From assembly GCA_003222195.1 (NCBI GenBank), contig QHVB01000030.1, positions 114,883-178,882 on the forward strand: DNA of 64,000 nucleotides. The letters are read 5' to 3'. The stretch is from Gemmatimonadota bacterium. GTDB lineage: Bacteria; Gemmatimonadota; Gemmatimonadetes; Gemmatimonadales; GWC2-71-9. This document shows, piece after piece, positions 1,580-53,670 of this stretch. The notes under the pieces were generated by a model. The model was not told where the DNA came from. It saw only the letters and a list, made by a program, of their open reading frames with translations, and ran no database searches. A program made the translations under genes and the position numbers. The first letter of the stretch is position 1. Each line of letters begins with the position of its first letter.

Positions 1580-1607
1580 GTAGGGGCGCAGCATGCTGCG
1601 CCCGTAC
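1580..1607. repeat. GTAG-type REP-like palindrome, copy 1 (intergenic, one mismatch)
   Basis: GTAGGGGCGCAGCATGCTGCGCCCGTAC. Confidence 0.9.
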
Positions 1608-1620
1608 CAGGGGGTGAGGA

Positions 1621-2811
1621 ATGACATTCCGGTTCACGACGGCTGGCGAGTCACATGGCCGCGGCCTGGTGGGGATTCTCGAAGGTCTTCCCGCCGGCCT
1701 GCCCGTTTCCGCCGCCGACGTGGACCTGGAGCTCAAGCGCCGCCAGGGTGGCTACGGCCGCGGCGCCCGGATGAAGATCGAATCGGACCGCATCGAGTGG
1801 CTCTCCGGCGTGCGCGCGGGGGAGACCCTCGGCTCCCCCATCGCGATGCTCATCTGGAACCGCGACTGGGAGCACTGGCAGGACGTCATGGCGCCGGAGG
1901 CGGACGATCCCAAGAGCGAGCGGCGCCGCCAGGTCACCCGGCCCCGTCCAGGCCACGCCGATCTCGCCGGCTCGCTCAAGTATGATCGCATGGACGCCCG
2001 TGACATCCTGGAACGGGCCAGCGCGCGCGAGACCGTCGCGCGGGTCGCGTGCGGGGCGGTGTGCAAGAAGCTGCTCCGGGAATTCAGCATCGAGATAGGC
2101 TCCCACGTAGCGGAACTGGGTGGCGTGGTTGCGAAGGTAGGGGCGCAGCATGCTGCGCCCCTACCCGCCAATATGAACGCCGTGGCCGATCAAAGCCCCG
2201 TCCGTTGCCTTGATAAGGACGCGGAAGCCGAGATGATCCGCCGCATCGACGCCGCTAAAGCCGCGGGCGACACGCTTGGCGGCATCGTCGAGGTGATCGC
2301 GCTGGGGGTGCCGGTGGGACTGGGATCGCACGTGTCGTGGGACGCGAAGCTCGACGGCCGGCTCGCGCAGGCGCTGATGTCCATCCCCGCGGTCAAAGGG
2401 GTCGAGCTCGGCCTCGGTTTCGAGGCGGCGCGCCGCAAGGGCTCGGAGGTCCACGACGAAATCCTGCCCGGGTTTTCCCGCGCGACGAATCGCGCCGGCG
2501 GCACGGAAGGCGGGATGACGACGGGGGAGCCGCTCGTCGTCCGCGTGGCGATGAAGCCGATCTCCACCTTGATGTCCCCGCTGAAAACGGTCGATCTCAA
2601 GACGGGCGGCCCCGCGCAGGCGCAATCGGAGCGCTCGGATGTGACTGCCGTGCCGGCGATGGGGGTCATCGCCGAGGCGATGCTGGCGATCGTCGTGACC
2701 GGGGCGCTGCTCGAAAAGTTCGGCGGCGACGCCTTGAGCGAGCTCAAGCGCAACGTGGACGGCTATCTCGCGCAGGTGCGCGCGCGGACGCCGCGGGGTG
2801 CGGCATCGTGA
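1621..2811 (+). CDS. aroC: Chorismate synthase
   Basis: TAGESHG, RRQGGYGRG, RPRPGHAD, ERASARET and MKPIST motifs. Confidence 0.97.
   Translation: MTFRFTTAGESHGRGLVGILEGLPAGLPVSAADVDLELKRRQGGYGRGARMKIESDRIEWLSGVRAGETLGSPIAMLIWNRDWEHWQDVMAPEADDPKSERRRQVTRPRPGHADLAGSLKYDRMDARDILERASARETVARVACGAVCKKLLREFSIEIGSHVAELGGVVAKVGAQHAAPLPANMNAVADQSPVRCLDKDAEAEMIRRIDAAKAAGDTLGGIVEVIALGVPVGLGSHVSWDAKLDGRLAQALMSIPAVKGVELGLGFEAARRKGSEVHDEILPGFSRATNRAGGTEGGMTTGEPLVVRVAMKPISTLMSPLKTVDLKTGGPAQAQSERSDVTAVPAMGVIAEAMLAIVVTGALLEKFGGDALSELKRNVDGYLAQVRARTPRGAAS
2137..2164. repeat. REP-like palindrome copy 2, in-frame inside aroC
   Basis: Perfect GTAGGGGCGCAGCATGCTGCGCCCCTAC, read as VGAQHAAPL. Confidence 0.92.
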
Positions 2812-3326
2812 AACGGCACATCGTGCTCATCGGACTGCCGGGCGCGGGCAAGAGCACGGTAGGCAAGATGGTGGCGGAGCGGCTGCATACGGCGTTCGTG
2901 GACATCGACAGCATCTTGAATCGCAAAGAGGGTAAACCGATCTCGATGATCTTCGCCGAGAAGGGCGAGCCCGCGTTTCGGGAGATGGAGCGCAAGGAAG
3001 TCGCCGCCGCGCTGGCGAATGAACCGGCGGTGATCGCGCCGGGCGGCGGCTGGGCGGCGCAGCCCGGCGCGCTGGATTCCGCAAAACCTCGCGGGTACAT
3101 CGTCTATCTGAAGGCGCGCGCCGAGGTGGCAGCCGGCCGCGCCGAGCCGTCGGGAACCCGGCCCGTTTTGATGGGTGATGATCCGCTGGCACGCATGAAG
3201 GACCTCTTCACGCAGCGCGATCCATTCTACGCGAAAGCGGATGCGACGGTGCTCACGGAAGCCAAGAGTGCGGAAAACGTAGCTGCTGAGGTCGTAAAGC
3301 TTGCGCAAATGAGCGCCGGTTGGTAA
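2808..3326 (+). CDS. aroK: Shikimate kinase
   Basis: GTG start overlaps the aroC stop (GTGA). P-loop GLPGAGKS, GEPAFREME, GGG and RPVL motifs. Confidence 0.93.
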   Translation: MKRHIVLIGLPGAGKSTVGKMVAERLHTAFVDIDSILNRKEGKPISMIFAEKGEPAFREMERKEVAAALANEPAVIAPGGGWAAQPGALDSAKPRGYIVYLKARAEVAAGRAEPSGTRPVLMGDDPLARMKDLFTQRDPFYAKADATVLTEAKSAENVAAEVVKLAQMSAGW

Positions 3327-3361
3327 AGATGCAAGCCCGAAGGTTGAACTGAGGTTGATCG

Positions 3362-5752
3362 GTGACTGATAAAGAAGAAGAAGTGATACCAAAAAAGAAG
3401 CGGGCTCCGCGCAAAAAGGCCGCGGAGAATCCGCCGGCGGAGACCGAGGTGACCGACGCCGCTCCTGCAAAGGGCGGCGCACTCGTCATTGTCGAGTCCC
3501 CGACCAAGGCGAAAACGATCGGCAAGTACCTCGGCCGTGGCTACACGGTCAAGGCAACCGTCGGCCATCTGCGGGACCTCCCCAAGCGCGAGCTCGGCGT
3601 CGACGTCGAGAACGGGTTCACGCCGAAATACGTCACTATTAAGGAAAAGGCGAAGACCCTCGCCGAGATCAAGAAGGCGGCCAAGGCCGCCGATCGCGTG
3701 CTGCTCGCCACCGACCCGGACCGGGAAGGGGAGGCGATCGCCTGGCACGTCGCGTCGCAGCTCAATGGCGCCGGCAACGGCAAGATCCGCCGCGTCCTGT
3801 TCCATGAAATCACGAAAGACGCCGTCGCCGAGGCCCTGGCGAATCCGCTCGACATCGACCAACGCAAGGTCGACGCCCAGCAGGCCCGCCGGGTCCTGGA
3901 TCGCCTGGTCGGCTACAAGGCGTCGCCGGTGCTCTGGAAGAGCATCAAGACCGGTCTGTCGGCAGGTCGCGTGCAGACGGTCGCCCTGCGCCTGATCATC
4001 GAGCGCGAGGAGGAGATCCGGAAGTTCGCGCCGCAGGAGTACTGGACGATCGCCGCCGATCTCGAGAAGGACGGGCAGCCGTTCCAGGCGCGGCTGCAGA
4101 AGCTCGGCGGGCACAAGCCCGAGATCAAAACCGAGCAGGCGGCGCGCGACATCGTCGCCGAAGTCGAGAAGCTCCCGTTCGTCGTGACTTCGGTGGAGCG
4201 GGGAGAACGCCGCCGCAAGGCGCCGGCCCCGTTCACGACCAGCACGGTGCAGCAGGAAGCCGCGAAACAACTGGGCTTTTCCGCCGGGCGGACGATGCGC
4301 GCGGCGCAGAAGCTGTACGAGGGCGTAGAGCTCGGCGACCAGGGATCCGTGGGTCTGATCACCTACATGCGCACCGACTCCGTGCGGGTGTCGGACGCCG
4401 CGATCAAGCAGGCACGCGAGTACATCAACGCGCAGTTCGACAAGCGCTACCTGCCCGCTGAGCCGAATGTCCATAAAGGCGGACGGGGATCGAAGGTCCA
4501 GGATGCGCACGAAGCGATTCGGCCCACCGAAGTCGGCCTCAAGCCAGACGACGTGAAGAAGTACCTCGAGCGGGATCTCTTCAAGCTCTATCAGCTGATT
4601 TGGCGGCGGTTCCTGGCGTCGCAGATGTCGCCCGCGGTCTACGAGGCGACGAAGGTCGACTTCGACCTGGCCAACGGCCGGTTCCTGTTCCGCGCCACCG
4701 GCTCTCGCGTCCTGTTCGACGGCTACCACGCGCTCTTCAGCGAGGCGCACGAGGCGGAAGACGCGAAGACGCTCGACAGCCTCGAGCCGATTCCGCCGCT
4801 CAAGGAAGGCGACCGGGCCACGCTCAAGCAGGTCGCGCCCAGCCAACACTTTACCGAGCCGCCGCCGCGCTACAGCGAGGCGAGCCTGGTCAAGGAGCTG
4901 GAGCGGCTGGGCATCGGCCGGCCATCCACGTACGCCGCGATCATCTCGACGCTGCGCACACGCTGGTATGCGACCGCCAAAGACCGGCGTTTTCAGCCGA
5001 CGCCGCAGGGCGAGACGGTCTGGAAGGTGCTCAAGCGGTCATTCCCGGAGGTCTTCGAAGTCGGGTTCACCGCGCAGATGGAGAACGAGCTGGACAAGGT
5101 CGAGGAAGGGGATCTCGACTGGAAAGCGGTGCTCGGTGACTTCTGGGGGCCGTTCAATCGCGCGCTGGAAGCCGTGGACATCAACAAGATCATCCACGAA
5201 GTGCACGATCTCTCGGGCGTCGCCGCCGAGAAGTGCCCGAAGTGCGGCGCGCCGCTCGAGGTGAAGAGCGGCCGCTTCGGTCCCTACATCGCCTGCTCGC
5301 GCTACGCGTCGAAGGAGTGCGGCTACTCGCGATCCATCAAGAAGGACAAGGTGCCCGACCGGCCGTCGGATGAGATCTGCAAGGAATGCGGCGCGCCGAT
5401 GGTGATCAAGACGGGACGGTTTGGCGAGTTCCTGGCGTGCACGCGCTATCCCAAGTGCAAGTACACGCAGCCGGTGCCGCTCGGCATCAAGTGCCCCCAG
5501 TGCGGCGTGGGCGACCTCGCGGAACGGCGCACCAAGCGCGGCCGGACGTTCTATGGTTGCCTCCGCTATCCGGACTGCGATTATTCGACGTGGAACAAGC
5601 CGGTCCCCGTCCCCTGTCCCAACTGCGGGTTCGTCGGGATGGAGCAGCTCAAGTCCAAGACGACGGGAGAGACGACACGCAAGTGTCTCAAGTGCGGGCA
5701 CCAGATGGCAGTCGAGGAAGCAGCCCCCGAAGCGGAAGAGGTCGCATCGTAG
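3362..5752 (+). CDS. topA: DNA topoisomerase I (type IA) with C-terminal zinc ribbons
   Basis: IVESPTKAK, ATDPDREGEAI, SAGRVQ, ITYMRTD, GIGRPSTY and repeated CxxC ribbons. Confidence 0.97.
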   Translation: MTDKEEEVIPKKKRAPRKKAAENPPAETEVTDAAPAKGGALVIVESPTKAKTIGKYLGRGYTVKATVGHLRDLPKRELGVDVENGFTPKYVTIKEKAKTLAEIKKAAKAADRVLLATDPDREGEAIAWHVASQLNGAGNGKIRRVLFHEITKDAVAEALANPLDIDQRKVDAQQARRVLDRLVGYKASPVLWKSIKTGLSAGRVQTVALRLIIEREEEIRKFAPQEYWTIAADLEKDGQPFQARLQKLGGHKPEIKTEQAARDIVAEVEKLPFVVTSVERGERRRKAPAPFTTSTVQQEAAKQLGFSAGRTMRAAQKLYEGVELGDQGSVGLITYMRTDSVRVSDAAIKQAREYINAQFDKRYLPAEPNVHKGGRGSKVQDAHEAIRPTEVGLKPDDVKKYLERDLFKLYQLIWRRFLASQMSPAVYEATKVDFDLANGRFLFRATGSRVLFDGYHALFSEAHEAEDAKTLDSLEPIPPLKEGDRATLKQVAPSQHFTEPPPRYSEASLVKELERLGIGRPSTYAAIISTLRTRWYATAKDRRFQPTPQGETVWKVLKRSFPEVFEVGFTAQMENELDKVEEGDLDWKAVLGDFWGPFNRALEAVDINKIIHEVHDLSGVAAEKCPKCGAPLEVKSGRFGPYIACSRYASKECGYSRSIKKDKVPDRPSDEICKECGAPMVIKTGRFGEFLACTRYPKCKYTQPVPLGIKCPQCGVGDLAERRTKRGRTFYGCLRYPDCDYSTWNKPVPVPCPNCGFVGMEQLKSKTTGETTRKCLKCGHQMAVEEAAPEAEEVAS

Positions 5753-5776
5753 GGGCGCAGCATGCTGCGCCCCTAC
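5749..5776. repeat. REP-like palindrome copy 3 at the topA/trmFO junction
   Basis: Perfect 28-bp palindrome. Its TAG (5750-5752) is the topA stop, and its VGAQHAAPL frame is the trmFO frame. Confidence 0.92.
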
Positions 5777-7104
5777 AGGTAATTGGCGGCGGCCTCGCGG
5801 GCTGCGAAGCCGCCTGGGCCCTCGCCGAGCGAGGATTGCGTGTAACGCTGCACGAGATGCGCCCGATCAAGATGACGCCGGCGCATCAGACGGAGAGCCT
5901 CGCCGAGCTGGTCTGCAGCAACACTTTCAAATCGGTCGAACCCACGCATGCGCACGGCCTGCTCAAAGCCGAGATGCGCGCGCTCGGGAGCATCGTGCTG
6001 CAGTCGGCCGACGAGGCGCGGATTCCCGGCGGCAGCGCACTCGCGGTGGATCGCGTGGTGTTCTCGGCGCGGGTGCAGGAGCGCGTGCTCGGTCACCCCA
6101 ACATCACGCTGGTGCGCGGCGAGGTCACGGAGCTCCCCTCGCCGGGCATCGTCGCGACGGGACCGTTGACGTCCGACGCACTCGCGCAGGCGATCGGCGC
6201 ACGGCTCGGCGTCCAGTCGCTCGCGTTTTACGATGCGATCGCGCCGATCGTCGCGGCGGACTCGCTCGATTACACGCGACTCTTCAAGGCATCGCGGTAT
6301 GGCAAAGGCGGCGGCGACGATTACTGGAACGCGCCGCTCACACAAGCGGAGTACGAAGCATTCGTCGCCGCGCTGATCGCGGGCGAGCAGTACCTGCCGG
6401 CGGGCGGCCACGAATTCGACAAAGTCCCGTACTTCGAAGGCTGCCTGCCCGTCGAGGAGATGGCGCAGCGCGGGATCGAGACGCTCCGGTTTGGTCCGAT
6501 GAAACCCATCGGTCTGCCAGGGGACTCATATGCCGTGGTTCAGCTGAGGCAGGAAGACCGTGCCGCGCAGATGTGGAATCTCGTGGGCTTCCAGACCCGA
6601 CTGAAGACCGGGGCGCAGCAGCGCGTCTTTCGCACGATTCCCGGGCTCGAGCAGGCGGAGTTCCTGCGCTTCGGCTCGATTCACCGCAACAGCTACCTGA
6701 ATGCGCCCGCCGCGCTGACGCCGCACCTCGCCGCGAAAGCCGATCCGCAGCTGCTGTTTGCCGGCCAGCTCACCGGGGTCGAGGGCTACACCGAGTCCGC
6801 GGCGACGGGGATGCTGGCGGGAATCAACCTGGCGCGATTGCTCGCCGGGGACGAGCCGGTCCTGCCGCCGCCCACCACGATGCTCGGCGCGCTGTATCGC
6901 TATTTGCGCGAGACCGATCCGGCTCGCTTCCAGCCGATGAACGCGAACTTCGGGCTGCTGGAGCCGCTGGACGACCCGCCACGCGACAAGTTCAAGAAGA
7001 AGGAAGCGTTGGCGGAGCGGGCGCTGCGGGAGATGGAGAAGTTCTCGGGATCGCTCGGTTCTTCACAGGCTGAAGCACACCCTTCAGGGTGTGAACAATC
7101 ATGA
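5749..7104 (+). CDS. trmFO: FADH2-oxidizing tRNA (uracil-5-)-methyltransferase TrmFO (start codon uncertain)
   Basis: VIGGGLAGCEAA, ELVCSN, YFEGCLP, LRFGPMKP, GQLTGVEGY, FQPMNANFG. Conserved topA-trmFO-xerC-hslVU order. Confidence 0.93.
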   Translation, partial: VGAQHAAPLQVIGGGLAGCEAAWALAERGLRVTLHEMRPIKMTPAHQTESLAELVCSNTFKSVEPTHAHGLLKAEMRALGSIVLQSADEARIPGGSALAVDRVVFSARVQERVLGHPNITLVRGEVTELPSPGIVATGPLTSDALAQAIGARLGVQSLAFYDAIAPIVAADSLDYTRLFKASRYGKGGGDDYWNAPLTQAEYEAFVAALIAGEQYLPAGGHEFDKVPYFEGCLPVEEMAQRGIETLRFGPMKPIGLPGDSYAVVQLRQEDRAAQMWNLVGFQTRLKTGAQQRVFRTIPGLEQAEFLRFGSIHRNSYLNAPAALTPHLAAKADPQLLFAGQLTGVEGYTESAATGMLAGINLARLLAGDEPVLPPPTTMLGALYRYLRETDPARFQPMNANFGLLEPLDDPPRDKFKKKEALAERALREMEKFSGSLGSSQAEAHPSGCEQS

Positions 7105-7982: not shown

Positions 7983-7989
7983 GAAACGC

Positions 7990-8526: not shown

Positions 8527-8527
8527 C

Positions 8528-10087
8528 ATGGCCAAGGCACCGGTTTCACACCCTCCAGAACCTCCCCCAACCTCCACCGACGCTCCTGCGGCCGCTGGAG
8601 CAGGGGTAGCCGCCGAGGAGACACTCCCCTGGCTGGAGGAGCTCCCGCCCAAGAAGATCGTCGCCGAGCTGGACCGCTACATCGTCGGGCAGGAGGCGGC
8701 CAAGAAGGCCGTCGCGATCGCGATCCGGAACCGCTGGCGGCGCGCCCAGGCGCCCGAAGAGATCCGGGACGAGATCATGCCGAACAACATCATCATGATC
8801 GGCCCGACGGGCGTGGGTAAGACCGAGATCGCGCGCCGTCTCGCGCGGCTCGCCGGCGCGCCGTTCCTGAAGGTCGAGGCTTCGAAGTTCACCGAGGTCG
8901 GCTACGTCGGCCGCGACGTCGAATCGATGGTGCGCGAGCTGGTCGACGTATCGATCAACATGGTTCGCTCCGAGCGCGAAGATGACGTCTACCCCATGGC
9001 GGAACAGCGTGCCGAGGAGCGCCTGTTGGACTTGCTCCTGCCGCCCCTCCCTTCGCCGCCCCCCGCCGCCTCCTCGTCGCCAGGATCACCGAGTCCGGAA
9101 GCGGGCTCCGGAGTCGCCGCCCGGCAGCTCTTCGTGGTCTCGTCGAAGGGTGACGTGCAGCCCAAGGTGCCCGAGGCCGAGACTGAGGCGCAGGAGCGGC
9201 GCCGGCGCACGCGGGAGAAGCTCCGCCAGCAATTGAAGGACGGGCAGCTGGAAGAGCGCGACGTCGAGATCGAGGTGCAGCAGCAGAACTTCCCGATGCT
9301 CGAGATGATGCAGCCGCCCCAGGGCATGGAAGGGCCGGACATCAATTTCGGCGAAATGATTCAGGAGCTGATCCCGAAGAAGAAAAAGCGCCGCACGGTG
9401 CATCTGCACGAGGCGCGTCGCATCCTGATCGACGAGGAGCTGAAGAAGCTGGTCGACATGGACGACGTGGTGAACGAGGCGCTGGACCGCGTCGAGAACC
9501 ACGGCGTCATCTTCATCGACGAGATCGACAAGATCACCGGGCAGCGCGGCCAGAGCACGGGCCCCGACGTCTCGCGCGAGGGCGTCCAGCGCGACCTCCT
9601 CCCTATCGTCGAGGGCTCGACGGTGCAGACGCGCTACGGCTATGTGCGCACCGATCACATCCTCTTCATCGCGGCGGGCGCATTCCATATCGCCAAGCCG
9701 AGCGACCTGATTCCGGAGCTGCAGGGCCGGTTCCCGATTCGCGTCGAGCTGTCGTCGCTGACCGAGGCCGACTTCGTGCGCATCATGACGGAGCCCGAGA
9801 ATGCGCTGACCAAGCAGTACGCGGCGCTGTGCGCGTCGGACGGGGCGACGCTTTCGTTCACGGCGGACGGTGTGAAGGAGATCGCGCGCATCGCGGCCAA
9901 GGTGAACGAGCGCATGGAAAACATCGGCGCCCGGCGGCTGCACACCGTGATGACGACGTTGCTCGAGGAAGTGATGTTCGAGCTGCCCGACTATCCTTCC
10001 AAGAACATCGTGTTCGACGGGCCCGCGGTACGGGAACGGCTGCTCCGGATCGTCGAGGACGAGGACCTGAGGAAATACATCCTGTAG
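8528..10087 (+). CDS. hslU: ATP-dependent protease ATPase subunit HslU
   Basis: [49 protein letters not shown]. Carries Pro/Ser-rich insertions. Confidence 0.96.
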
Positions 10088-34719: not shown

Positions 34720-35240
34720 AAAGCATCACGATCGCGCGCAATTACGCCGAGGCGCTGTTCGCCGCGGGCGACCGGTTCAATGAGATCCTCGACGCCATGG
34801 CGGGCGCTATCGAGGCGGACGAGCGGATCAAGACCGTGCTCCAATCGCCCCGCGTCTCGAAGGCTGCCAAGGGCAAGATCCTGGAGCGTGCGTTGAAAGG
34901 CGAGGCGCCGGTGGAGTTTGTCCGGTTCCTGCAAGCGGTTGTGCGGCGCGGCCGTCAGGGTCTACTGCCCGAGATAGCGCAGGAATACCAGGTGCTGTTA
35001 GATGAAAAGCTGAATCGCGTACACGCCGGCGTCACGCTGGCGGACGAGCCCGATGCGAGCACGCAGAAGCAGGTGATCGATCGGCTCACGAAGGTGCTGG
35101 GGCGGGAGGTGCGGGCCTACTTCCGGTCCGATCCCAAGATCCTCGGCGGGGTAGTGGTACGCGTCGGCGACCGTATCTTCGATGGCTCGGTTCGCCGGCG
35201 GCTCACCGCGTTGCAACGGAGAATGCTTACAGGGGAGTGA
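34716..35240 (+). CDS. atpH: F0F1 ATP synthase subunit delta
   Basis: ARNYAEALF, DPKILGGVVVRVGDRIFDGS. Confidence 0.93.
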
Positions 35241-36244
35241 CTATGAAAAGCCTCGCGTTGCTGGGTTTGCTCGCTGTCGCAGTTCCTTTCGTCGATAAGC
35301 CTCCAGTCATCAAAGAATGGCCTGTACCCTGGGCGGACACGCGCCCGCGCGACCCGTTCCTCGATCCGACCACGAACCGCATCTGGTTCTGCGGCCAGGC
35401 GGGCAACTACATCGCCTATTTCGTCCCGGCGACCGGAGCGTTCAAGAAATACGATCTGCCGCCCGGCAGCGGCCCGCATAACCTGATCGTCGACAAGTCG
35501 GGATTCGTGTGGTTCTCGGGCAATCTCGCGGGATACATCGGCCGGCTCGATCCGAAGGACGGCAGCGTCAAGCAGTATCCGATTCCCGATCGGATGGTGC
35601 GCGATCCGCACACCCTCGTGTTCGACAAGAACGGCGACATCTGGTTCACGGCGCAAGGCGGCAACGCGGTCGGACACCTCACGGTGTCGACCGGCGCGAT
35701 CCGGCTGATCAAGGTGCCGACCGAGAACGCGCGCCCGTACGGCATCAAGCTGGATTCGAAGGGCCGTCCCTGGTTCATGGAGTTCGGCACGAACAAGATC
35801 GCCACCGTGGATCCCGCGACGCTGCAACTCCGCGAAATCACGCTGCCGCGCCCGGAGACCCGCCCGCGGCGGATGGAAATCACGTCCGACGACAAGATCT
35901 GGTACGGCGACTACGCGGGCGGCATGCTCGGCCGCTACGATCCTGCCACAGGCAAGGTCGACGAGTGGCAGCTGCCGGGCGGCGCGGACGCGCGGCCCTA
36001 CGCGATGGTGCGCGACGATGAGGACCGCGTCTGGGTGGTCGAGACGTCGCGGCCCAATCGGTTCGTCTCGTTCGATTCGCGCACGCTACAGTTCTCGGCC
36101 GAGACGCCGGTGCCGAGTGGCGGCGGGGTGGTGCGGCACATGTTCTACGATCCCGCGACGAAGGCAATCTGGTTCGGCACGGACAACAACACCTTGGGTC
36201 AGGCGATCGTGCCGCCGCGGACCCCGACGCCGCAGACGCCGTAG
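35237..36244 (+). CDS. Secreted Vgb (streptogramin lyase)-like beta-propeller protein
   Basis: Signal peptide; repeated GPH/DPH/RPY..D..G.IWF blades. Confidence 0.8.
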   Translation: MTMKSLALLGLLAVAVPFVDKPPVIKEWPVPWADTRPRDPFLDPTTNRIWFCGQAGNYIAYFVPATGAFKKYDLPPGSGPHNLIVDKSGFVWFSGNLAGYIGRLDPKDGSVKQYPIPDRMVRDPHTLVFDKNGDIWFTAQGGNAVGHLTVSTGAIRLIKVPTENARPYGIKLDSKGRPWFMEFGTNKIATVDPATLQLREITLPRPETRPRRMEITSDDKIWYGDYAGGMLGRYDPATGKVDEWQLPGGADARPYAMVRDDEDRVWVVETSRPNRFVSFDSRTLQFSAETPVPSGGGVVRHMFYDPATKAIWFGTDNNTLGQAIVPPRTPTPQTP

Positions 36245-36271
36245 GGGCGCAGCATGCTGCGCCGCCCCTAC
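36241..36271. repeat. REP-like palindrome copy 4 (3-nt internal duplication), supplies the TAG stop
   Basis: GTAGGGGCGCAGCATGCTGCGCCGCCCCTAC; TAG at 36242-36244 ends the Vgb-like gene. Confidence 0.88.
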
Positions 36272-46199: not shown

Positions 46200-46201
46200 T
46201 T

Positions 46202-46690: not shown

Positions 46691-46705
46691 CCCAGGCGGG
46701 AACCT

Positions 46706-46739: not shown

Positions 46740-46751
46740 TGGAGACCCCCA

Positions 46752-47405: not shown

Positions 47406-48741
47406 GACCCAGATCGCACTGCTCGTTGCGCTGAGTGGCGCGGCTTCGCTGCGGGCGCAAACGCCCCCCCCCGCTCCCCTGCGTCTCTCATTCGTCGACG
47501 CGGTGCGCCATGCGTCGGGTGCGAGCCTCGACACCGCGCCGCCGGCCGTCACGATCGCCGGGTTTCGCAGCGACGCCGCCGGCGCGCGCGTGCGCGAGGC
47601 ACGCGCCGCGCTGTTGCCGAATCTGGCCTTCACGGGCTCGTGGGTGAACCGCACCTTCAATCCCCAGACGCTCGGATTCAAGATCCCCGGGTTCAGCCTC
47701 CCCTCGCTGGTTCCGCCGTTCAACGCCTATGACGGCCGGGCGCGCGTCACGCAGACGCTGTTCGACCTGTCGAGCTTGAGTCGCATCAGCGCCGCGCGCG
47801 GTCAGCTCAACGCAGCGAATGCGGAGCGGACCGCGGTCATCGAGACCGCCGTGCAAAACGTCGCGCTGGCGTATGCGCGCGCCGCACGTGCCCAGGCCGT
47901 GGTCGAGGCCCGTCATGCCGATTCGGTGCTTGCCGCCGAATTGGTCGGTCTCGCCGTCGCGCAGCAGCAGGCGGGCGTGAGCGCATCGATCGACGTGACC
48001 CGCGCGCGGACGCAGCTGGCCGACGCGGCCGGCGCTCTCGTTGTCGCCGCCAATCAGCTCGATCGCGCGAAGATCGATCTCGCGCGCGCCCTGGGCATCG
48101 ATCCGAACACACCCATCACCCTGGCCGACAGCCTCAGCGCGGAGCTTGGCGCCGCCGACGTGCCCGCTGACCGCGGCACGGCCGTGACGCAGGCGGTCGC
48201 GACGCGTCCCGATCTGCTCGCCGAGCAGGCGCGTGGCCGGGCGGCGCAGCAGGCGGCGAGCGCGATCTCGGCCGAGCGGCTGCCCCGTCTCGACGTCGAG
48301 GCCGACTACGGGTTCAGTGGCCTGCGCGTCCCCGACGCCGTGGGTACGCGGCAGGTGGCGGTCGAGGTCACGTTGCCCATTCTCGACGGTTTCCGGCGCG
48401 AGGGGCGGCGGGCCGAGCAGCAGGCCGTGGTGCGCGAGTCCGATGTGCGCGTGCGTGACCTCCGCCAGCAGGTGTCTGCCGACGTCGATGGGGCGCTGCT
48501 CGACCTGCGCTCGGCCGGCGCCCAGCAGCAAATCGCCGTGGAGCGGCTGCAGCTGGCCGCGCAGGAGGTTTCGGAGGCCCGCCAGCGTTTCAAAGCAGGC
48601 GTCGCCGGCAATATCGAAGTCATCAACGCCCAGTCTTCACTGCTCCGCGCGCGTGACGCGGACATCGATGCGCGCTTCGCGGCAGTATCGGCGCGCATTG
48701 CGCTGGCCCGTTCGGTGGGCAGCGCGCGGACCCTGCATTAA
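47389..48741 (+). CDS. TolC family outer-membrane efflux protein
   Basis: Signal peptide, helical repeats, LPRLDV and TLPILDG; operon context. Confidence 0.88.
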   Translation: MASASRTQIALLVALSGAASLRAQTPPPAPLRLSFVDAVRHASGASLDTAPPAVTIAGFRSDAAGARVREARAALLPNLAFTGSWVNRTFNPQTLGFKIPGFSLPSLVPPFNAYDGRARVTQTLFDLSSLSRISAARGQLNAANAERTAVIETAVQNVALAYARAARAQAVVEARHADSVLAAELVGLAVAQQQAGVSASIDVTRARTQLADAAGALVVAANQLDRAKIDLARALGIDPNTPITLADSLSAELGAADVPADRGTAVTQAVATRPDLLAEQARGRAAQQAASAISAERLPRLDVEADYGFSGLRVPDAVGTRQVAVEVTLPILDGFRREGRRAEQQAVVRESDVRVRDLRQQVSADVDGALLDLRSAGAQQQIAVERLQLAAQEVSEARQRFKAGVAGNIEVINAQSSLLRARDADIDARFAAVSARIALARSVGSARTLH

Positions 48742-48752
48742 GGAACAGGACA

Positions 48753-49793
48753 ATGGCAACGACGATGGAACCGACAGAAACCAGGACTCGGCCCACACCC
48801 GCGGCGCCTCCGGCCGCCCCGCAGAAGCCGGCCCCCAAAAGCTCCCGGCGGACCGTCTTCCTCATCATGGGCGTGATCCTGGCCGGGCTGCTCCTCTTTG
48901 GCGTACGGAAATGGTGGTTCAGCCGGTCGCACGTGTCGACCGACAACGCCCAGGTGGACGGCCACATCGTGCCGATCCTGCCCAAGGTCGGCGGCTACGT
49001 CGCGGAGGTGCGCGTCGAGGAGAACCACACGGTGAAGGCCGGCGACACACTGGTCGTGCTGGATGACCGCGACTTCCGCGCTCGCCTCGCCCAGACAGAA
49101 GCGGATCTCGCCGCGCTATTGGCCACGGTCAGCTCGCGGACGCGGGTGGGGCAGGCTGAGGCCGCCGTCGCCCAGGCGCAGGGGAACGCACTCAAGGCCA
49201 CCGCCGATCTGGCGCGCATCGAGCCGCTCGCGCTTCAGAACGTCGTGAGCCAGCAGCAGCTCGATGGGGTGCGCGCCGCCGCCACGGCGGCGCAGGCGCA
49301 GCTTGCCGCGGCGCAGGCGATGCTCGTCGGCGCCGATGCTCGTGTCGCGGCGGCCCGCGCGTCGCGCGATCAGGCCGCGCTACAGCTCTCCTATACGCGC
49401 GTGATCGCGCCGTCCAACGGCGTCGTCTCGAAGAAGACCGTCGAGCTGGGGCAGCTCGTGCAGCCGGGCCAGCCGCTGATGAGCGTCGTGCCGCTCGAAG
49501 ACGTCTGGGTGACGGCGAACTTGAAGGAGACGGAGACGGCCGACGTCACGCCGGGCGACTCGGCCGACGTCACCGTCGATGCGTACAAGGGGGTCCACTT
49601 CCGCGGCCACGTCGAGAGCCTGGCGCCTGCGACTGGCGCGAAGTTCTCGCTGCTGCCGCCCGACAATGCCACCGGCAACTTCACCAAGGTCGTGCAGCGC
49701 ATTCCCGTACGGATTCACTTGGATAGCGCTCCCGACCCCATGCATCCGCTGCGACCCGGCATGAGCGTCGTCGCGACCATCAAGACGCACTAG
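48753..49793 (+). CDS. HlyD/EmrA family membrane fusion protein
   Basis: STDNAQV, SLLPPDNATGNFTKVVQRIPVRI. Confidence 0.92.
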   Translation: MATTMEPTETRTRPTPAAPPAAPQKPAPKSSRRTVFLIMGVILAGLLLFGVRKWWFSRSHVSTDNAQVDGHIVPILPKVGGYVAEVRVEENHTVKAGDTLVVLDDRDFRARLAQTEADLAALLATVSSRTRVGQAEAAVAQAQGNALKATADLARIEPLALQNVVSQQQLDGVRAAATAAQAQLAAAQAMLVGADARVAAARASRDQAALQLSYTRVIAPSNGVVSKKTVELGQLVQPGQPLMSVVPLEDVWVTANLKETETADVTPGDSADVTVDAYKGVHFRGHVESLAPATGAKFSLLPPDNATGNFTKVVQRIPVRIHLDSAPDPMHPLRPGMSVVATIKTH

Positions 49794-49794
49794 G

Positions 49795-51372
49795 ATGACC
49801 GCCGCCGCGTTACCGCTGTCCGCTGCGGCGGACCGCTATCGCTTCAAGTACATCATCGCGATAACGGTGTCGCTCGCGTCGGTGCTGGAGCTACTCGATA
49901 CCAGCATCGTGAACGTGGCGATTCCGCACATGATGGGAAATCTGGGGGCGACGCTCGATCAGATCGCCTGGGTGTCGACCGGATACATCGTCGCGAACGT
50001 GATCGTGCTGCCTATCACGGGATGGCTGTCGGCGTATTTCGGCCGGCGCCGCTATTTCGCCGGCTCGATCGCGCTCTTCACGCTCGCGTCGTTCCTGTGC
50101 GGCAACGCCGGGTCGCTGGGAGCGCTGATCTTCTGGCGCATCGTGCAAGGGCTGGGTGGAGGCGCACTCCTCTCGACTTCGCAAGCGATTCTATACGAAG
50201 AGTTTCCGCGCGAAGAGTACGGCACGGCGATGGCTATCTTCGGCGTCGGCGTCATGGTTGGCCCGACGCTTGGGCCAACCGTTGGCGGGTGGATCACCGA
50301 CACATACGGCTGGCCGTGGATCTTCTACATCAACATCCCCTTCGGCATGCTCGCCTTGGCGCTGACGATGTCGTTCATCAACGACTCGCGGCACCAGGAG
50401 CGGTCCACGCGAGTGGACTTCGTGGGCCTCGGTCTGCTGGCCGTTGGAATCGGTGCCTTGCAGACGATGCTCGAGCGCGGCGAGCGGCTCGACTGGTGGT
50501 CGTCGGGGCAGGTACGGTTGCTGGCCATCACCAGCGCGCTGTCGCTGATCACGTTTATCTGGCACGAACTGCGCACGGAAGACCCGGTCGTCGACCTACG
50601 AATTCTGAAGAGTCGGCAGCTTGCGGTGGGGGTGGTGTTCGGACTTGTGCTGGGCGTCTGCCTGTACGCGACGGTGTTCGTGCTACCGGTCTATCTCCAG
50701 AACATTCGCAACTTCACGGCGAATCAAACCGGTTTGGTGATTCTGCCGGGCGCCCTCGCGAGCGCGTTTACGATGGCGGTGATGGGCCGAACTACCGGGA
50801 AATTTGACGCACGATTGTCGATCACCGCCGGCGTCGGGATCTTTGCGCTCTCGATGTGGAAGCACGCGCACTTCACCACCGAAAGCGGCATGTCCGACTT
50901 CTTCTGGCCGCTCATTTTCCGCGGCGTGGGACTCGGCCTGATCTTTGTACCGCTGACGAACCTCGCGCTCGCCGATCTGCCGATGTCGAAGATCCCGAAC
51001 GGGACGGGGCTCTTCAACCTGATGCGGCAGCTGGGCGGCAGCATCGGGATCGCGCTGTCGGCGACCCTGTTGCAGCGGTTCACGGCGATTCACCGGGCCG
51101 ATCTCGCCGCCAACATCACGCCGTACGCTGAGGCGACCCGTGAGCGGCTCGCGGCGATTACCCAGACATTGATTGCACGCGGCGAGGTGCCGGCGATCGC
51201 CCAAACGAAGGCGATCGGATTCTTGAACGCTATCGTGACGAAGCAGGCGATGATGCTGTCGTTCGAGCAGCTGTTCCTGTTGTTCGGAATGGTGTTCGTG
51301 CTGTCGCTGGCGCTGCTGCCGCTGATGCACAAGAGTCGCGGCGTGGGCTCGGCGGGAGCGGGGGCCCATTGA
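49795..51372 (+). CDS. DHA2 family MFS efflux permease (EmrB-like)
   Basis: LDTSIVNVA, WVSTGY, GPTLGPTVGG, WPWIFYINIP, RQLGGSIG. Confidence 0.92.
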   Translation: MTAAALPLSAAADRYRFKYIIAITVSLASVLELLDTSIVNVAIPHMMGNLGATLDQIAWVSTGYIVANVIVLPITGWLSAYFGRRRYFAGSIALFTLASFLCGNAGSLGALIFWRIVQGLGGGALLSTSQAILYEEFPREEYGTAMAIFGVGVMVGPTLGPTVGGWITDTYGWPWIFYINIPFGMLALALTMSFINDSRHQERSTRVDFVGLGLLAVGIGALQTMLERGERLDWWSSGQVRLLAITSALSLITFIWHELRTEDPVVDLRILKSRQLAVGVVFGLVLGVCLYATVFVLPVYLQNIRNFTANQTGLVILPGALASAFTMAVMGRTTGKFDARLSITAGVGIFALSMWKHAHFTTESGMSDFFWPLIFRGVGLGLIFVPLTNLALADLPMSKIPNGTGLFNLMRQLGGSIGIALSATLLQRFTAIHRADLAANITPYAEATRERLAAITQTLIARGEVPAIAQTKAIGFLNAIVTKQAMMLSFEQLFLLFGMVFVLSLALLPLMHKSRGVGSAGAGAH

Positions 51373-52481
51373 ACAGGCTGCAGTTTGTGGCGCGCCTGGG
51401 AATCGTGGGCGGGCTGTGGACGTTGCTCAACGTTTACGTTGGCGCGCACCTGCTCGGCCCCGCGCCCCTCGCCGGCCTGCCGCGCCTGCTCGCCTGGGGC
51501 GCCGTGGTGATAGTCGCCTGGCTGCCCCTGGTGGCGCTCGCGACCGCGCGTCGTGAGACCGACGGGAGTCATCACCGCGGGTCTTTGATACGGCTGCTCG
51601 ACTGGGCGGCCTACACGATGATGGGGCTGTCGTCGTTGCTGATCGTGGCCTTCTTCGTCACCGATCTCCTCCGCCTGCCCGCCAGCGCCAGGGTGGTCCT
51701 GGTCGTCGTGAGCGGCGCCGCGCTGCTGACGCTCGTCGGCATCGTGCTTGCGCGCCGGCCGCGCGTGGTTCGCGTGACGGTACCGATCGCTGATCTCCCC
51801 AGCGACCTCGCCGGATTTCGGATTCTCCAGCTCAGCGATCTGCACATCGGACCCACGATCCGGCGCCGGTTCGTGGACGCAGTTGTCGACCGGGCAAACG
51901 CGTTACGGCCGGATCTCGTTGCGGTGACGGGCGACGTCGCCGATGGGCTCGTGCCGGAGCTGCGCGAGCATGTGGCCCCGCTCGGCCGCCTCCACGCGCC
52001 GTACGGCTCGTACTTCGTGACGGGCAATCACGAGTACTACTGGGATGTGCGCGGCTGGATCGCTGAGCTGCGGCGACTCGGGATGGAAGTTCTCTCGAAT
52101 GAACATCGGATCGTGCAGCGTGGGGCGGGGCGCCTGCTGCTTGCCGGCGTCACCGACCTCTCAGCCGCGTCCGATCCGGCCGGTGCCGTGGCTGGGGCGC
52201 CGCCGAGCGACGTGCGCGTGTTGCTGGCGCACCAGCCGCGCAGCGCATTCGCCGCCCAGGCAGCGGGCTACGACCTGCAACTGTCAGGGCACACGCACGG
52301 CGGCCAGTACTTTCCCTTCAATCTGCTCGTGCGGCTGTTTCAACCGTTTGTCGCCGGACTGCATCGTCTGGAGTCGATGTGGCTCTATGTGAGCCGGGGA
52401 ACCGGCTACTGGGGTCCGCCGCTCCGGCTCGGCGCGCCGGCTGAGATCACGCTGCTCGAGCTTCAGCCATCGCCGCGGTGA
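51369..52481 (+). CDS. Membrane-anchored metallophosphoesterase
   Basis: SDLH, TGD, GNHE, LAHQP, SGHTHGGQ. Confidence 0.9.
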   Translation: MNRLQFVARLGIVGGLWTLLNVYVGAHLLGPAPLAGLPRLLAWGAVVIVAWLPLVALATARRETDGSHHRGSLIRLLDWAAYTMMGLSSLLIVAFFVTDLLRLPASARVVLVVVSGAALLTLVGIVLARRPRVVRVTVPIADLPSDLAGFRILQLSDLHIGPTIRRRFVDAVVDRANALRPDLVAVTGDVADGLVPELREHVAPLGRLHAPYGSYFVTGNHEYYWDVRGWIAELRRLGMEVLSNEHRIVQRGAGRLLLAGVTDLSAASDPAGAVAGAPPSDVRVLLAHQPRSAFAAQAAGYDLQLSGHTHGGQYFPFNLLVRLFQPFVAGLHRLESMWLYVSRGTGYWGPPLRLGAPAEITLLELQPSPR

Positions 52482-53670
52482 CCAACAGGGCGCGCACGAT
52501 GCCGAGCGCGCCCTTGTCGTTTTCGTACCACTCGGTCGGCAGATGGGCATCGCCCGCTCGACCTCCCGCTCCCAGCGCGACAGCCGGGACTCCGAGCGCG
52601 ATCGGGATATTGGCGTCGGTGGAGGCGCACGCGAGCTGATGCTCGTGGCCGACGGCTCGGGTCGCGGCGACGGCGGTCTGCACGAGCGGGTGAGTGCGCG
52701 GCGTCAGACCCGAGGGCCGGTCGCCGACGCGCTGGACCTCCATCGTCAGTGGAGCCGTACCGGGAAGCCGGTGCCGATTTTCCTCGTCGCGCGCGTCCGC
52801 AACCACCGCCTGCAGCGTCTCATCGATTCGCTGGAGCGAGCGCGGATCCTCGCTGCGCAGATCGATCTCGAACCACGCGACCTGTGGTATTGAGTTGAGA
52901 CTCGTGCCCCCGCCGAGGCGCGTCACGGCGCAGGTACTGCGCGGTGAGTGTTGTGCGGGGAGATCGGCCAACAGGGCGGTTGCCCGTCCTACCGCGTTTG
53001 CTGGATTGGCCACGCCAAAGGCCGCCCACGAGTGTCCACCGGGCCCCGTGTACGTGATCCGGTAGCGTCGAGCCCCGAGCGCGCGGTGGACGATGCGTTC
53101 GATGCCGGCGCCGTCCAGCGCGATGAAGGCATGCGGGCGAATGCGGCCGTCGAGCAGGTGACGCACGCCGCGGAGATCTCCCGATCCTTCCTCGCCCACG
53201 GTCGCTGCAAAGAGGATGGGACGTTCCGTGGCCACTCGAGCGCGGGTGAGTGCTTCACCGAGCGACACCAGCGCCGCGAGACCGCGCGCGTTGTCGGCGA
53301 TGCCAGGTCCTTCGAGACGTGGCCCACGCCGCGCCACGGAGACGTCCAGCTCGGGGCCAAAGACGGTGTCGAGGTGCGCGGTTACCACGACACATCCGTG
53401 GTGTAGGGGCGCAGCATGCTGCGCCCCTACTCCGTCGCTGGAACCGGTTCGATACCAACCCCGCACATTCCCAACTTCATCCATCTCGACATTCTTCAGG
53501 CCCGCCTCGCACAACATTTCAGCCACGCGCGCCCCGCGTGCGGCCTCCGCACCCGTGGGTGCCGGGATCGCCGACAGCGCTGCCTGGCGGGCGAGCGTCA
53601 CCTCGTCCGAATGCTCGATGTGTGCTCGGGCTGCACGGATCCGGTCATTGGCGAGAAGCGCGGCAATCAC
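52447..53670 (-). CDS. M20/M25/M40 family metallo-hydrolase
   Basis: AHLDTV, GIADN, VGEEG, GGHSW, STDAN, AHLPTEW. Confidence 0.88.
   Translation of the reverse strand: MIAALLANDRIRAARAHIEHSDEVTLARQAALSAIPAPTGAEAARGARVAEMLCEAGLKNVEMDEVGNVRGWYRTGSSDGVGAQHAAPLHHGCVVVTAHLDTVFGPELDVSVARRGPRLEGPGIADNARGLAALVSLGEALTRARVATERPILFAATVGEEGSGDLRGVRHLLDGRIRPHAFIALDGAGIERIVHRALGARRYRITYTGPGGHSWAAFGVANPANAVGRATALLADLPAQHSPRSTCAVTRLGGGTSLNSIPQVAWFEIDLRSEDPRSLQRIDETLQAVVADARDEENRHRLPGTAPLTMEVQRVGDRPSGLTPRTHPLVQTAVAATRAVGHEHQLACASTDANIPIALGVPAVALGAGGRAGDAHLPTEWYENDKGALGIVRALLVTAAMAEARAA
53403..53430. repeat. REP-like palindrome copy 5, in-frame inside the M20 hydrolase
   Basis: Perfect 28-mer, read as VGAQHAAPL on the minus strand. 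Confidence 0.92.

What the first reader, a model, noticed from the sequence alone, without database searches (positions are those of the whole stretch)
1580..53430. 28-bp GTAG palindrome that writes itself into proteins and supplies stop codons
Seen: GTAGGGGCGCAGCATGCTGCGCCCCTAC occurs 5 times (1580, 2137, 5749, 36241, 53403). Three copies lie in coding frames (aroC, start of trmFO, M20 hydrolase on the minus strand). All three read VGAQHAAPL and never use the other open frame RGAACCAPT. Two copies supply the TAG stop (topA, Vgb-like gene), and only one is purely intergenic. Known: GTAG-terminated REPs are mobilised by RAYT (TnpA-REP) HUH transposases and are usually extragenic; in-frame palindromic insertions are best known from Rickettsia RPEs. 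Inference: a recently active REP family remodelling the proteome, with selection on reading frame.
Basis: partly seen in the sequence, partly recalled or inferred. Interest (0 to 1): 0.75.

Follow-up and report, generated by a model that had tools for sequence, protein, structure and literature searches.

The report
REP hairpin repeats written into genes
A 28-base DNA hairpin of a known mobile kind (a REP element with its own transposase gene) occurs about 58 times in this Gemmatimonadota genome, is read in frame inside about a quarter of its host sites, and mostly sits beside TAG stop codons that were already there instead of creating them.

Summary
The repeat is real: 5 copies in the window (3 exact, one with 1 mismatch, one with a 3-nt insertion) and 58 in the 3.5-Mb genome. 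It is a GTAG-type "double-foot" REP. The genome's only RAYT-like gene (contig C67) is flanked by two exact copies.

Of the 58 copies, 15 are in frame in real genes, in variable loops, linkers or termini: 14 read VGAQHAAPL and 1 reads RGAACCAPT. Eight overlap a TAG stop. Of the 31 intergenic copies, none lies between divergent genes.

- **Not shown to be recently active.** All 10 copies compared across about 30 congeners are shared with other species. The palindrome stays almost unchanged while flanking synonymous sites have diverged 43-51%.
- **Stops mostly pre-existed.** At both window stop sites (topA, Vgb-like) the stop stood at the same position in repeat-free relatives. At topA the filled state is exactly +24 nt after a host GTAG.
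- **Frame bias may not be peptide selection.** A 24-nt (8-codon) unit landing beside host GTAG/CTAC predicts 71% VGAQHAAPL frame, so peptide selection is not required (residual p = 0.04).

Stop overlap, intragenic REPs and double-foot REPs are already published, and this scan has noted the same kind of element on other genomes. This is a new member of a known kind.

The parts
1580..1607 (.). REP copy with 1 mismatch (CCCGTAC). Intergenic: 82 nt after the upstream gene's stop and 13 nt before the aroC ATG.
   Evidence: The orthologous site is filled in G016 and G004, degenerate in G015, and in G012 is empty with GTAG retained.
1621..2811 (+). aroC (chorismate synthase), host of an in-frame copy
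   Evidence: Pfam Chorismate_synt, 404.8 bits
2137..2164 (.). Exact REP copy read in frame as VGAQHAAPL (AroC residues 173-181)
   Evidence: Present in 8 of 23 congener loci and absent from 15. It lies in a variable loop.
3362..5752 (+). topA. Its TAG stop is bases 2-4 of the repeat.
   Evidence: The stop stands at the same position in the repeat-free relatives.
5749..5776 (.). Exact REP copy at the topA/trmFO junction. Relative to empty alleles it is GTAG (host) plus 24 inserted nt.
5779..7104 (+). trmFO (GIDA family). The start codon is unresolved. The repeat is in the same frame upstream of VIGGGLAG.
   Evidence: Pfam GIDA, 310 bits; start analysis
35237..36244 (+). Vgb_lyase-family gene whose TAG stop lies in the repeat
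   Evidence: The same C-terminus ...QTP* occurs in the 8 repeat-free loci.
36241..36271 (.). 31-bp REP variant (3-nt insertion in the right arm)
52447..53670 (-). M20/M28-family peptidase, host of an in-frame copy
   Evidence: Pfam Peptidase_M20, M20_dimer, Peptidase_M28
53403..53430 (.). Exact REP copy read on the minus strand as VGAQHAAPL (residues 81-89), between GNVRGW and CVV..AHLDTV

Best explanation
The palindrome is a GTAG-type, 'double-foot' REP element. It is the cognate DNA hairpin of a REP-associated tyrosine (HUH) transposase, RAYT, encoded once in this genome outside the window at G000:C67:3613-4188, between two exact copies.

Shown:
- There are 58 copies, and the strand folds into a 12-bp-stem hairpin.
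- Copies sit just after stop codons or in frame in indel-tolerant loops, linkers and termini of real genes.
- Copies are old and vertically shared among species.
- The palindrome is kept nearly unchanged while flanking synonymous sites diverge.
- Each RAYT clade in the genus carries its own REP variant.

Inferred:
- The mobile unit is 24 nt: the 20-nt core GGGCGCAGCATGCTGCGCCC plus one 4-nt foot.
- It is joined next to a host (G/N)TAG, by analogy with IS200/IS605 elements, which insert 3' of a tetranucleotide that is not part of the element.
- Eight codons never shift the frame, which explains tolerated in-frame copies.
- Because the target contains TAG, copies pile up on existing TAG stops.
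- The phase of host GTAG/CTAC in codons favours the VGAQHAAPL frame. Selection against the Cys-Cys frame may add to this.
- Resident copies are overwritten or re-seeded in place by whichever RAYT/REP family is active.
For: Census:
- 54 copies at up to 3 mismatches, 29 of them exact; 58 copies at up to 2 mismatches in the 22-nt core.
- Classes: 15 intragenic, 12 overlapping gene ends, 31 intergenic. None of the 31 lies between divergent genes.
- Hairpin -15.5 kcal/mol, z = -5.5.

RAYT:
- 3 Y1_Tnp hits in the genome. Only the C67 protein scores best as REP_Tyr_transpos (61 bits, against 17 for IS200). It has HVH and RYIRDNP motifs.
- Exact 28-mers lie 54 nt and 158 nt from its ends.
- Orthologous RAYTs in G010, G016, G011 and G003 are flanked by the same 28-mer.

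Gene hosts:
- Of the 15 spanning ORFs plus the PPDK ORF, 15 of 16 hit Pfam families. The exception (C24:33386) was re-read on the other strand as transaldolase/PGI.

Loop insertions:
- AroC, M20 and S58 alignments.

24-nt unit:
- At topA/trmFO, empties read TCGTAG+ag/ac+GTC. Filled alleles read TCGTAG + 24 nt + the same ag/ac.
- C87:98439 is +24 relative to the 4-nt-overlap empties.
- Single-foot 24-nt units occur in an Acidobacteriota chromosome.

Pre-existing stops:
-.

Target phases:
- 1075+737 sites give frame A, against 230+508 for frame C.

Conservation:
- Third-position pairwise divergence is 0.163 in the repeat against 0.511 in the flanks (aroC), and 0.032 against 0.428 (S58).

Family switching at one site:
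-.
Against: - Only two sites give a clean +24 comparison. AroC (+12 net), S58 (+3 to +9, and +30 for a second event) and M20 are replacements in hypervariable loops, not clean insertions.
- At C17:102946 one clade has an extra codion-sized insertion (one extra codon) before the TAG. At C87:87339 the repeat does give the minus-strand gene a new stop and a changed C-terminus.
- At C87:98439, empties with TAGCTA would imply +20, not +24.
- NCBIfam places the RAYT below the equivalog cut-off (61 against 80 bits), and Pfam only at the cut-off (23.6 against 23).
- RAYT homologues were found in only 12 of 31 genus genomes, although more than that are repeat-rich. MAG incompleteness may explain this.
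- Gene calls are from my own crude caller. It made at least one strand error.
- No transposition was observed.
Confidence: 0.8

Rival explanations
1. The frame bias is produced by selection on the encoded peptide. Insertions land in any phase. Those read as RGAACCAPT (two cysteines, an AGG codon) are purged, and VGAQHAAPL is tolerated.
For: - 14 A to 1 C, p = 0.0005 against 50:50. A residual remains against the target-phase null (p = 0.042).
- The single frame-C copy (Y-family polymerase, C18:209822) was absent from all 4 relatives resolved, so it may be young.
- In-frame copies inside RAYT genes of other families also use frame A: VGARHVVPLH and VGARHAVPLH.
- In Di Nocera's supplementary table 3, O. 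terrae GTAG-18 inserts all read VGPALA(A/G)G.
Against: - The host GTAG/CTAC phase distribution alone predicts 71% A.
- In the Acidobacteriota chromosome my crude calls gave 5 A and 5 C. Four of the C-frame copies sit in C-terminal tails, so frame C is not forbidden.
Confidence: 0.35
2. The copies are host-beneficial hairpins (3'-end mRNA stabilisers, terminator-like structures or protein-binding sites) kept by purifying selection. They are essentially immobile today, and the RAYT is a domesticated maintenance enzyme.
For: - 0 of 31 intergenic copies lie between divergent genes, and nearly all are 0-30 nt after a stop.
- The palindrome is conserved 3- to 13-fold better than flanking synonymous sites.
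- In repeat-free relatives the same post-stop positions carry other hairpin-forming repeats.
- The persistence and domestication view is published (abstracts listed).
Against: - Different REP families occupy the same site in different species at 5 of 10 sites. This needs templated replacement or re-insertion, not only conservation.
- Intragenic copies have no obvious use for a hairpin.
- There is no T-run for intrinsic termination.
Confidence: 0.3
3. A recent burst of transposition in this genome created most copies, as the first reader proposed with 'recently active'.
For: 29 of 54 copies are exact and 18 have one mismatch.
Against: All 10 copies compared across congeners are shared with 1 to 10 other species whose flanking DNA is 13-30% diverged.
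Confidence: 0.1

Closest known systems
GTAG-tagged REPs (Di Nocera, De Gregorio and Rocco 2013, PMC3733652; passages and supplementary table 3 read)
   Same: - A GTAG foot on a short GC-rich hairpin.
- Location after genes.
- The TAG of the foot coinciding with stop codons.
- Copies wholly inside known genes encoding 7-10 residues.
- RAYT genes flanked by the repeat.
   Different: - Gemmatimonadota is not mentioned in the main text (0 occurrences).
- The paper says the REP termini 'provide' the stop. Here relatives show that the stop usually pre-existed.
- In the passages I read there is no statement on reading-frame preference or on a host GTAG target.
'Double foot' REPs of TnpA_REP subclass 2.4 (Quentin, Siguier, Chandler and Fichant 2018, PMC6006769; passages read)
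   Same: - A 5' GT[AG]G foot and its reverse complement at the 3' end.
- A patchy, many-phyla distribution.
- REP copies in frame inside the tnpA_REP gene between HuH and Y, seen here in congeners G050, G051 and G048 and in the Acidobacteriota locus.
   Different: - The RAYT of this genome has no internal REP.
- Subclass membership was not tested.
- They propose that double feet arise by central deletion of an inverted dimer. The filled/empty pairs here suggest one foot is host sequence.
REPIN-RAYT systems of Pseudomonas (Bertels and Rainey; abstracts only) and the 'orthoswitch' of Nunvar et al. 2013 (PMC3686654; passages)
   Same: - A single-copy RAYT.
- Long vertical persistence.
- RAYT clades each with their own REP variant.
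- Novel variants partly replacing older ones.
   Different: - Copies here are single 28-mers, not inverted doublets. One close pair among 58 is the exception.
- Variant replacement is seen here at individual orthologous sites away from the RAYT.
IS200/IS605 transposition (IS608; recalled, only seen as reference-list titles)
   Same: - A Y1 HUH enzyme.
- A hairpin substrate.
- Insertion 3' of a tetranucleotide that is not part of the element, with no target duplication. This matches the +24 after GTAG at topA.
   Different: - There is no transposase inside the mobile unit.
- A single hairpin would have to serve as both ends.
- This is mechanistic analogy only and was not tested.
Rickettsia palindromic elements (RPE; mentioned in PMC3733652)
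   Same: Palindromic repeats inserted in frame in functional genes.
   Different: No Rickettsia element was compared here. That RPEs are several times longer and lack a linked RAYT is recalled and comes from no call.

Membership tests
GTAG-type REP / REPtron | 5' GT[AG]G tetranucleotide at the foot of a GC-rich hairpin | tested here: met
   GTAG plus a 12-bp stem, -15.5 kcal/mol, z = -5.5
GTAG-type REP / REPtron | Many copies, mainly extragenic, after genes and not between divergent genes | tested here: met
   58 copies. Of 31 intergenic copies, 0 lie between divergent genes. 8 overlap stops.
GTAG-type REP / REPtron | A RAYT gene flanked by the same REP | tested here: met
   C67 RAYT lies between exact copies at C67:3531 and C67:4347. 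The same arrangement holds in G016 and G011, and on one side in G010 and G003.
GTAG-type REP / REPtron | The RAYT protein belongs to the REP-associated tyrosine transposase family (HUH and Y motifs) | tested here: inconclusive
   HVH and RYIRDNP are present. NCBIfam REP_Tyr_transpos is the best hit but scores 61 bits against a cut-off of 80. Pfam Y1_Tnp scores 23.6 against 23. Homologues are named RayT by JGI.
GTAG-type REP / REPtron | RAYT binds and cleaves or mobilises the REP | not testable with these tools
   Needs biochemistry or genetics
Double-foot REP of TnpA_REP subclass 2.4 | A foot at both ends (GTAG ... CTAC) | tested here: met
   Perfect 28-nt palindrome
Double-foot REP of TnpA_REP subclass 2.4 | REP copies in frame inside the tnpA_REP gene | tested here: not met
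   None inside the G000 RAYT ORF. Present in other RAYT clades of the genus and in the Acidobacteriota locus L177.
Double-foot REP of TnpA_REP subclass 2.4 | The RAYT falls in subclass 2.4 by the authors' profiles or tree | not tested
   No subclass profiles are on hand
REPIN (inverted REP doublet) | Two REPs in inverted orientation at a fixed short spacing as the replicating unit | tested here: not met
   Copies are singlets. Only C87:159190 and C87:159273 lie within 100 nt of each other. Doublets of 24-nt units do occur in the Acidobacteriota genome.
CRISPR array | Repeats separated by unique spacers of similar length | tested here: not met
   Copies are dispersed. The only array seen (L361, other phylum) is a 116-nt tandem unit 98% identical including the 'spacers'.

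The most novel reading that the evidence does not exclude
The REP is a minimal IS200/IS605-like transposon of exactly 24 nt (8 codons): one hairpin plus one foot. The RAYT joins it 3' of a host NTAG.

This single rule would explain four things:
- why the element never frameshifts genes;
- why it homes to existing TAG stop codons, including the CTAG overlaps of convergent genes;
- why one reading frame dominates;
- why the finished product is a 'double-foot' palindrome.

Occupied sites would then be re-written in place by whichever RAYT/REP family is active. That gives concerted evolution of copies at orthologous positions, and the same 28-mer in at least a dozen phyla.
Probability: 0.35. Interest if true: 0.7.

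Novelty: new member of a known kind. Interest (0 to 1): 0.42.

Why it matters
How REPs spread is still described as unresolved in the literature I read (PMC8266576, passages). This genus offers many natural filled and empty alleles at the same sites. At least two are clean +24-nt events beside a host TAG-containing tetranucleotide, and different REP families occupy the same site in different species. That makes the insertion rule directly testable.

For annotation, the case is a warning in three ways:
- Identical repeat copies need not be young.
- A stop codon inside a repeat need not have been brought by it.
- Repeat-derived peptides such as VGAQHAAPL are real parts of housekeeping proteins in loops.

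Otherwise the element itself is ordinary.

Tried and rejected
- **Gene caller.** My own codon-usage caller (3197 genes, 92.7% coding) called C24:33386 on the wrong strand. This was corrected with ORFs, scores and NCBIfam. N-terminal cases (amylase aa12, amidase aa1, DUF6807 aa16, PD40 aa12) depend on start-codon choice and are less certain.
- **Frame bias in other phyla.** Acidobacteriota gave 5 A and 5 C by crude calls, mostly within 20 codons of a start or in C-terminal tails, with only one robust internal copy (A). Planctomycetota gave 1 A. Chloroflexia gave 2 A, one in a weak 56-aa ORF. The replication is inconclusive. The caller also made 9 ORFs start at the repeat's own ATG, probably an artefact.
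- **Clean insertion footprints.** I sought them in the AroC, M20 and S58 loops and did not find them. The 'empty' alleles carry other G-rich fillers of similar length.
- **AlphaFold2 model of AroC from 17 sequences.** Poor, with mean pLDDT 60.8. It only shows the repeat in a coil between strand 158-166 and helix 185-189.
- **trmFO start codon.** Not resolved.
- **Literature and earlier notes.** A full-text search for the 28-mer, its core and the peptide found 0 papers. The scan's earlier notes found nothing by sequence.
- **CRISPR reading** of the 116-bp-spaced copies in L361. Rejected.
- **RAYT presence against repeat richness in the genus.** Only partly correlated. RAYT homologues were found in 12 of 31 genomes, and in none of the 8 repeat-poor genomes, that is the 8 with 7 or fewer matches.
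Full report
**Observation.** The pattern search finds five matches at 1580, 2137, 5749, 36241 and 53403, against none in 100 shuffles. Three are exact. The copy at 1580 has one mismatch. The copy at 36241 is a 31-bp version with three extra bases in the right arm.

Reading the sequence confirms most of the frame claims:
- The copy at 2137 is in frame in aroC as VGAQHAAPL.
- The copy at 53403 is in frame on the minus strand in an M20 peptidase, as the same peptide.
- The TAG of the copy at 5749 ends topA.
- The TAG of the copy at 36241 ends a Vgb_lyase-family gene.

Gene identities come from Pfam. The copy at 5749 is also open in the trmFO frame. However, the nearest canonical start upstream is GTG at 5692, in a stretch that scores as non-coding in that frame. 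In 27 congeners the spacer between the topA stop and the VIGGG codons is always 2 modulo 3. This hints at translation through the region but does not prove it.

**Census.** The window is G000:C48:114883-178882, in a 3.51-Mb, 95-contig, 65.7% GC genome. There are 54 copies with up to 3 mismatches (29 exact, 18 with one, 6 with two, 1 with three). Allowing 2 mismatches in the 22-nt core gives 58 copies. Flanks are not conserved.

With my own codon-usage gene caller, the 58 copies fall into three groups:
- 15 lie inside coding sequences.
- 12 overlap a gene end. Eight of these overlap by 4 nt, so that TAG is the stop. Three overlap by 1-3 nt. One has the repeat's ATG as the predicted start of a PPDK gene.
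- 31 are intergenic. Of these, 10 and 8 lie between same-direction genes, 11 lie between convergent genes, 2 flank the RAYT, and none lies between divergent genes. Almost all are 0-30 nt after a stop.

Of the 15 spanning ORFs plus the PPDK ORF, 15 of 16 hit Pfam families. The exception, C24:33386, was a strand error. The real gene is a minus-strand transaldolase/phosphoglucose isomerase (379 bits) that reads the repeat in frame A.

The final frame tally is 14 VGAQHAAPL-type and 1 RGAACCAPT. The single frame-C copy is in a Y-family polymerase, C18:209822. The in-frame positions are:
- linkers (ECF sigma between regions 2 and 4; altronate dehydratase between SAF and its second domain; BatD);
- loops (AroC, M20, S58 peptidase, amidohydrolase, PGI);
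- N-terminal or signal-peptide regions (4 cases, dependent on start choice);
- one C-terminal tail (RuvC).

**RAYT.** Three Y1_Tnp hits exist in the genome. Two are IS200/IS605 transposases (130 and 61 bits on NF033573). Only the C67 protein scores best as REP_Tyr_transpos: 61 bits, below the 80-bit equivalog cut-off, against 17 bits for IS200. It is 191 aa, has HVH and RYIRDNP motifs, and lies between exact 28-mers 54 and 158 nt from its ends. It has 1361 database relatives, some named RayT by JGI.

**Orthologues of the intragenic copies.**
- AroC: the peptide is present in 8 of 23 congener loci and absent from 15. Outgroup genera also lack it. The segment is a variable loop, with a net difference of +4 residues.
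- M20: 11 loci carry this family, 2 carry sister families and 14 carry none. The loop between GNVRGW and CVV..AHLDTV varies from about 8 to 17 residues.
- S58 peptidase: 8 of 25 loci are filled. One of them (G048) is an independent insertion at another point of the same loop, again in frame A.
- The frame-C copy is missing from all 4 relatives resolved.

The 'empty' loops are not bare. They hold G-rich fillers of similar length, so these three sites do not give clean footprints.

**Stops.**
- topA: every repeat-free relative ends at the same codion position (same codon position), with TAG or TAA.
- Vgb-like gene: the 8 repeat-free loci end ...QTP* at the same place.
- C48:58817: the ending ...EQL* is shared by filled and empty alleles.
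- C17:102946: the ending is ...GW*, with one extra codon in one clade.
- C87:98439: two convergent genes overlapped at CTAA/CTAG in 'empty' genomes, and both keep their stop positions.
- C87:87339: only here does the repeat clearly give the minus-strand gene a new stop and a different C-terminus.

Empty alleles carry GTAG exactly at the junction at topA, the Vgb-like gene, C48:58817 and C17:102946. Only 8.5% of called genes end in GTAG.

**Unit and target (inference).** At topA, empties read TCGTAG-ag/ac-GTC. Filled alleles read TCGTAG-[24 nt GGGCGCAGCATGCTGCGCCC(C/G)TAC]-ag/ac-GTC. The placement is unambiguous. C87:98439 is +24 relative to the 4-nt-overlap empties, although +20 relative to TAGCTA empties. 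Upstream of aroC, G012 keeps GATGTAG directly abutting the Shine-Dalgarno region where G000, G016 and G004 have the repeat.

In an Acidobacteriota chromosome the same core occurs as single-foot 24-nt units, often as inverted pairs, and six of them surround and invade a RAYT gene. I therefore propose that the mobile unit is 24 nt and that one foot of the 28-mer is host sequence, as with the target tetranucleotide of IS200/IS605 elements (recalled). A 24-nt unit is eight codons, so it can never shift a frame.

**Frame bias.** Host GTAG or CTAC in called coding sequences lies in phases that would give:
- frame A at 1075+737 sites;
- frame C at 230+508 sites;
- an internal stop at 8837 sites;
- 222 existing GTAG stops.

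The expected share of frame A is therefore 71%. Observing 14 of 15 has p = 0.0005 against 50:50, but p = 0.042 against 71:29. Target phase explains most of the bias, and selection against the Cys-Cys frame may add to it. In-frame copies in RAYT genes of sister families also use frame A. The O. terrae peptides tabulated by Di Nocera et al. show the same habit.

**Age, conservation, switching.** All 10 G000 copies compared across about 30 congeners are shared with 1 to 10 other species. Among species sharing the copy, third-codon-position pairwise divergence inside the repeat is 41 of 252 (0.163) against 716 of 1400 (0.511) in the flanks for aroC. For S58 it is 6 of 189 (0.032) against 449 of 1050 (0.428).

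The genus holds at least four sister families that differ by compensated changes in the upper stem. Each sits next to its own RAYT clade, and the clades are 40-47% identical to one another.

At 5 of the 10 sites another family occupies the same position in another species:
- topA: family 2 in G051, family 3 in G007.
- M20: family 2 in G051, family 3 in G017.
- C87:98439: family 3 in G019.
- C17:102946: family 2 in G051.
- C48:58817: family 3 in G048 and G007.

In the M20 loop, G051 (family 2) and G047 (family 1) share the derived GGAG foot and the following CAA. This points to replacement of the core in place, or to re-insertion at a retained target. High copy identity is therefore not evidence of recent activity.

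**Wider distribution.** The exact 28-mer occurs in MAGs labelled with at least 12 phylum-level names among the 80 rows printed. Copy numbers at up to 2 mismatches are:
- 35 in a closed 7.05-Mb Acidobacteriota chromosome;
- 15 in a Chloroflexia MAG;
- 15 in a cyanobacterial MAG, mostly a compensated variant;
- 9 in a Planctomycetota MAG;
- 2 in a Binatia MAG.

The Acidobacteriota RAYT surrounded by this core is only 43% identical to the G000 RAYT. RAYT relatives above about 60% identity may all be Gemmatimonadota, but the sources give no names. Why so divergent enzymes keep one hairpin sequence is unexplained.

**What is known.**
- Di Nocera et al. 2013 report GTAG REP termini coinciding with TAG stops and REPs inside genes.
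- Quentin et al. 2018 describe double-foot REPs, a patchy multi-phylum RAYT subclass, and in-frame REPs inside tnpA_REP.
- Nunvar et al. 2013 describe RAYT/REP co-diversification and partial replacement of variants.
- Corneloup et al. [quoted passage not shown]

I found no statement of a frame preference or of a host GTAG target in the passages read, or in searches. These covered only the held library. This scan has noted GTAG REPs in frame in genes on many other genomes (465 notes).

**Caveats.**
- Gene calls are my own.
- Relatives are MAGs.
- Kin are not independent, so the p-values for divergence overstate.
- G009 and G017 are unpublished genomes. They contribute rows to the counts.
- The aroC conservation figure includes G009.
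- 'Family 3 at the M20 site' and the family 3 copy number in G017 rest on G017 alone.
- No other conclusion depends on these two genomes.

Noticed in passing
L003:1147-1459 (G000:C67:3358-3670), beside and overlapping the RAYT 3' end: Two tandem arrays abut the downstream REP copy of the RAYT: a 20-nt unit CAGAGAATCAGGTACGGACG x9.1, ending in the REP, and a 16-nt unit CCTGCGTTTTCACCTG x6.1 just after it.
   Followed up: partly
Loci L237, L244, L253, L256 (M20 loop) and L324, L327, L333 (S58 loop) of congeners: Repeat-free alleles of both loops carry the same G-rich heptamer-like filler (CGGGAAACGGGAAACG...) or GGGGAC/GGGAGCA runs. These loops are shared hot spots for several kinds of short repeats.
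   Followed up: no
L129, L136, L149 upstream of aroC; L427, L432, L433, L439 after the stop at the C48:58817 site: Other palindromic repeat families occupy the very positions that hold the REP in G000. One is CCCCCTCTCCC...GGGAGAGGGGG. The others are long palindromes built of CTATCGG-type heptamers.
   Followed up: no
window 1530-1575: A conserved terminator-like hairpin GAGCCCGAC...GTCGGGCTC followed by TGTTAT lies between the upstream gene and the REP copy. It is present in nearly all congeners.
   Followed up: no
window 5746-5790 and L183-L209: trmFO has no canonical start codon near its VIGGGLAG motif in many congeners (GTC/GTA/GTT/ATT in the position where others have GTG). A conserved ATC preceded by GAAGAGG overlaps the topA stop. 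Spacer lengths are all 2 modulo 3.
   Followed up: partly
L361:1416-1881 (Acidobacteriota chromosome G042): Four exact 28-mers spaced 116 nt apart belong to a 116-nt tandem repeat x4.0 that is 98% identical. It is not a CRISPR array.
   Followed up: yes
G019 contigs C294 and C271: aroC of this congener is split over two contig ends, one piece ending at residue 172 of the G000 protein, directly before the repeat (residues 173-181), and the other beginning at residue 212. The repeat may break short-read assemblies.
   Followed up: no
G000:C27:105008 (L172, L225): The ATG inside the repeat (frame TAG...ATG CTG CGC CCC TAC = MLRPY) is the predicted start of a 902-aa pyruvate phosphate dikinase. 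In the Acidobacteriota genome 9 ORFs were called this way. Whether any really starts there was not checked.
   Followed up: no
G000:C87:288667, C87:441769, C95:121112: Three in-frame copies are followed by the same residues (…VGAQHAAPLHAQ…). Two of them lie in predicted N-terminal signal-peptide-like segments of a DUF6807 protein and a PD40 peptidase.
   Followed up: no
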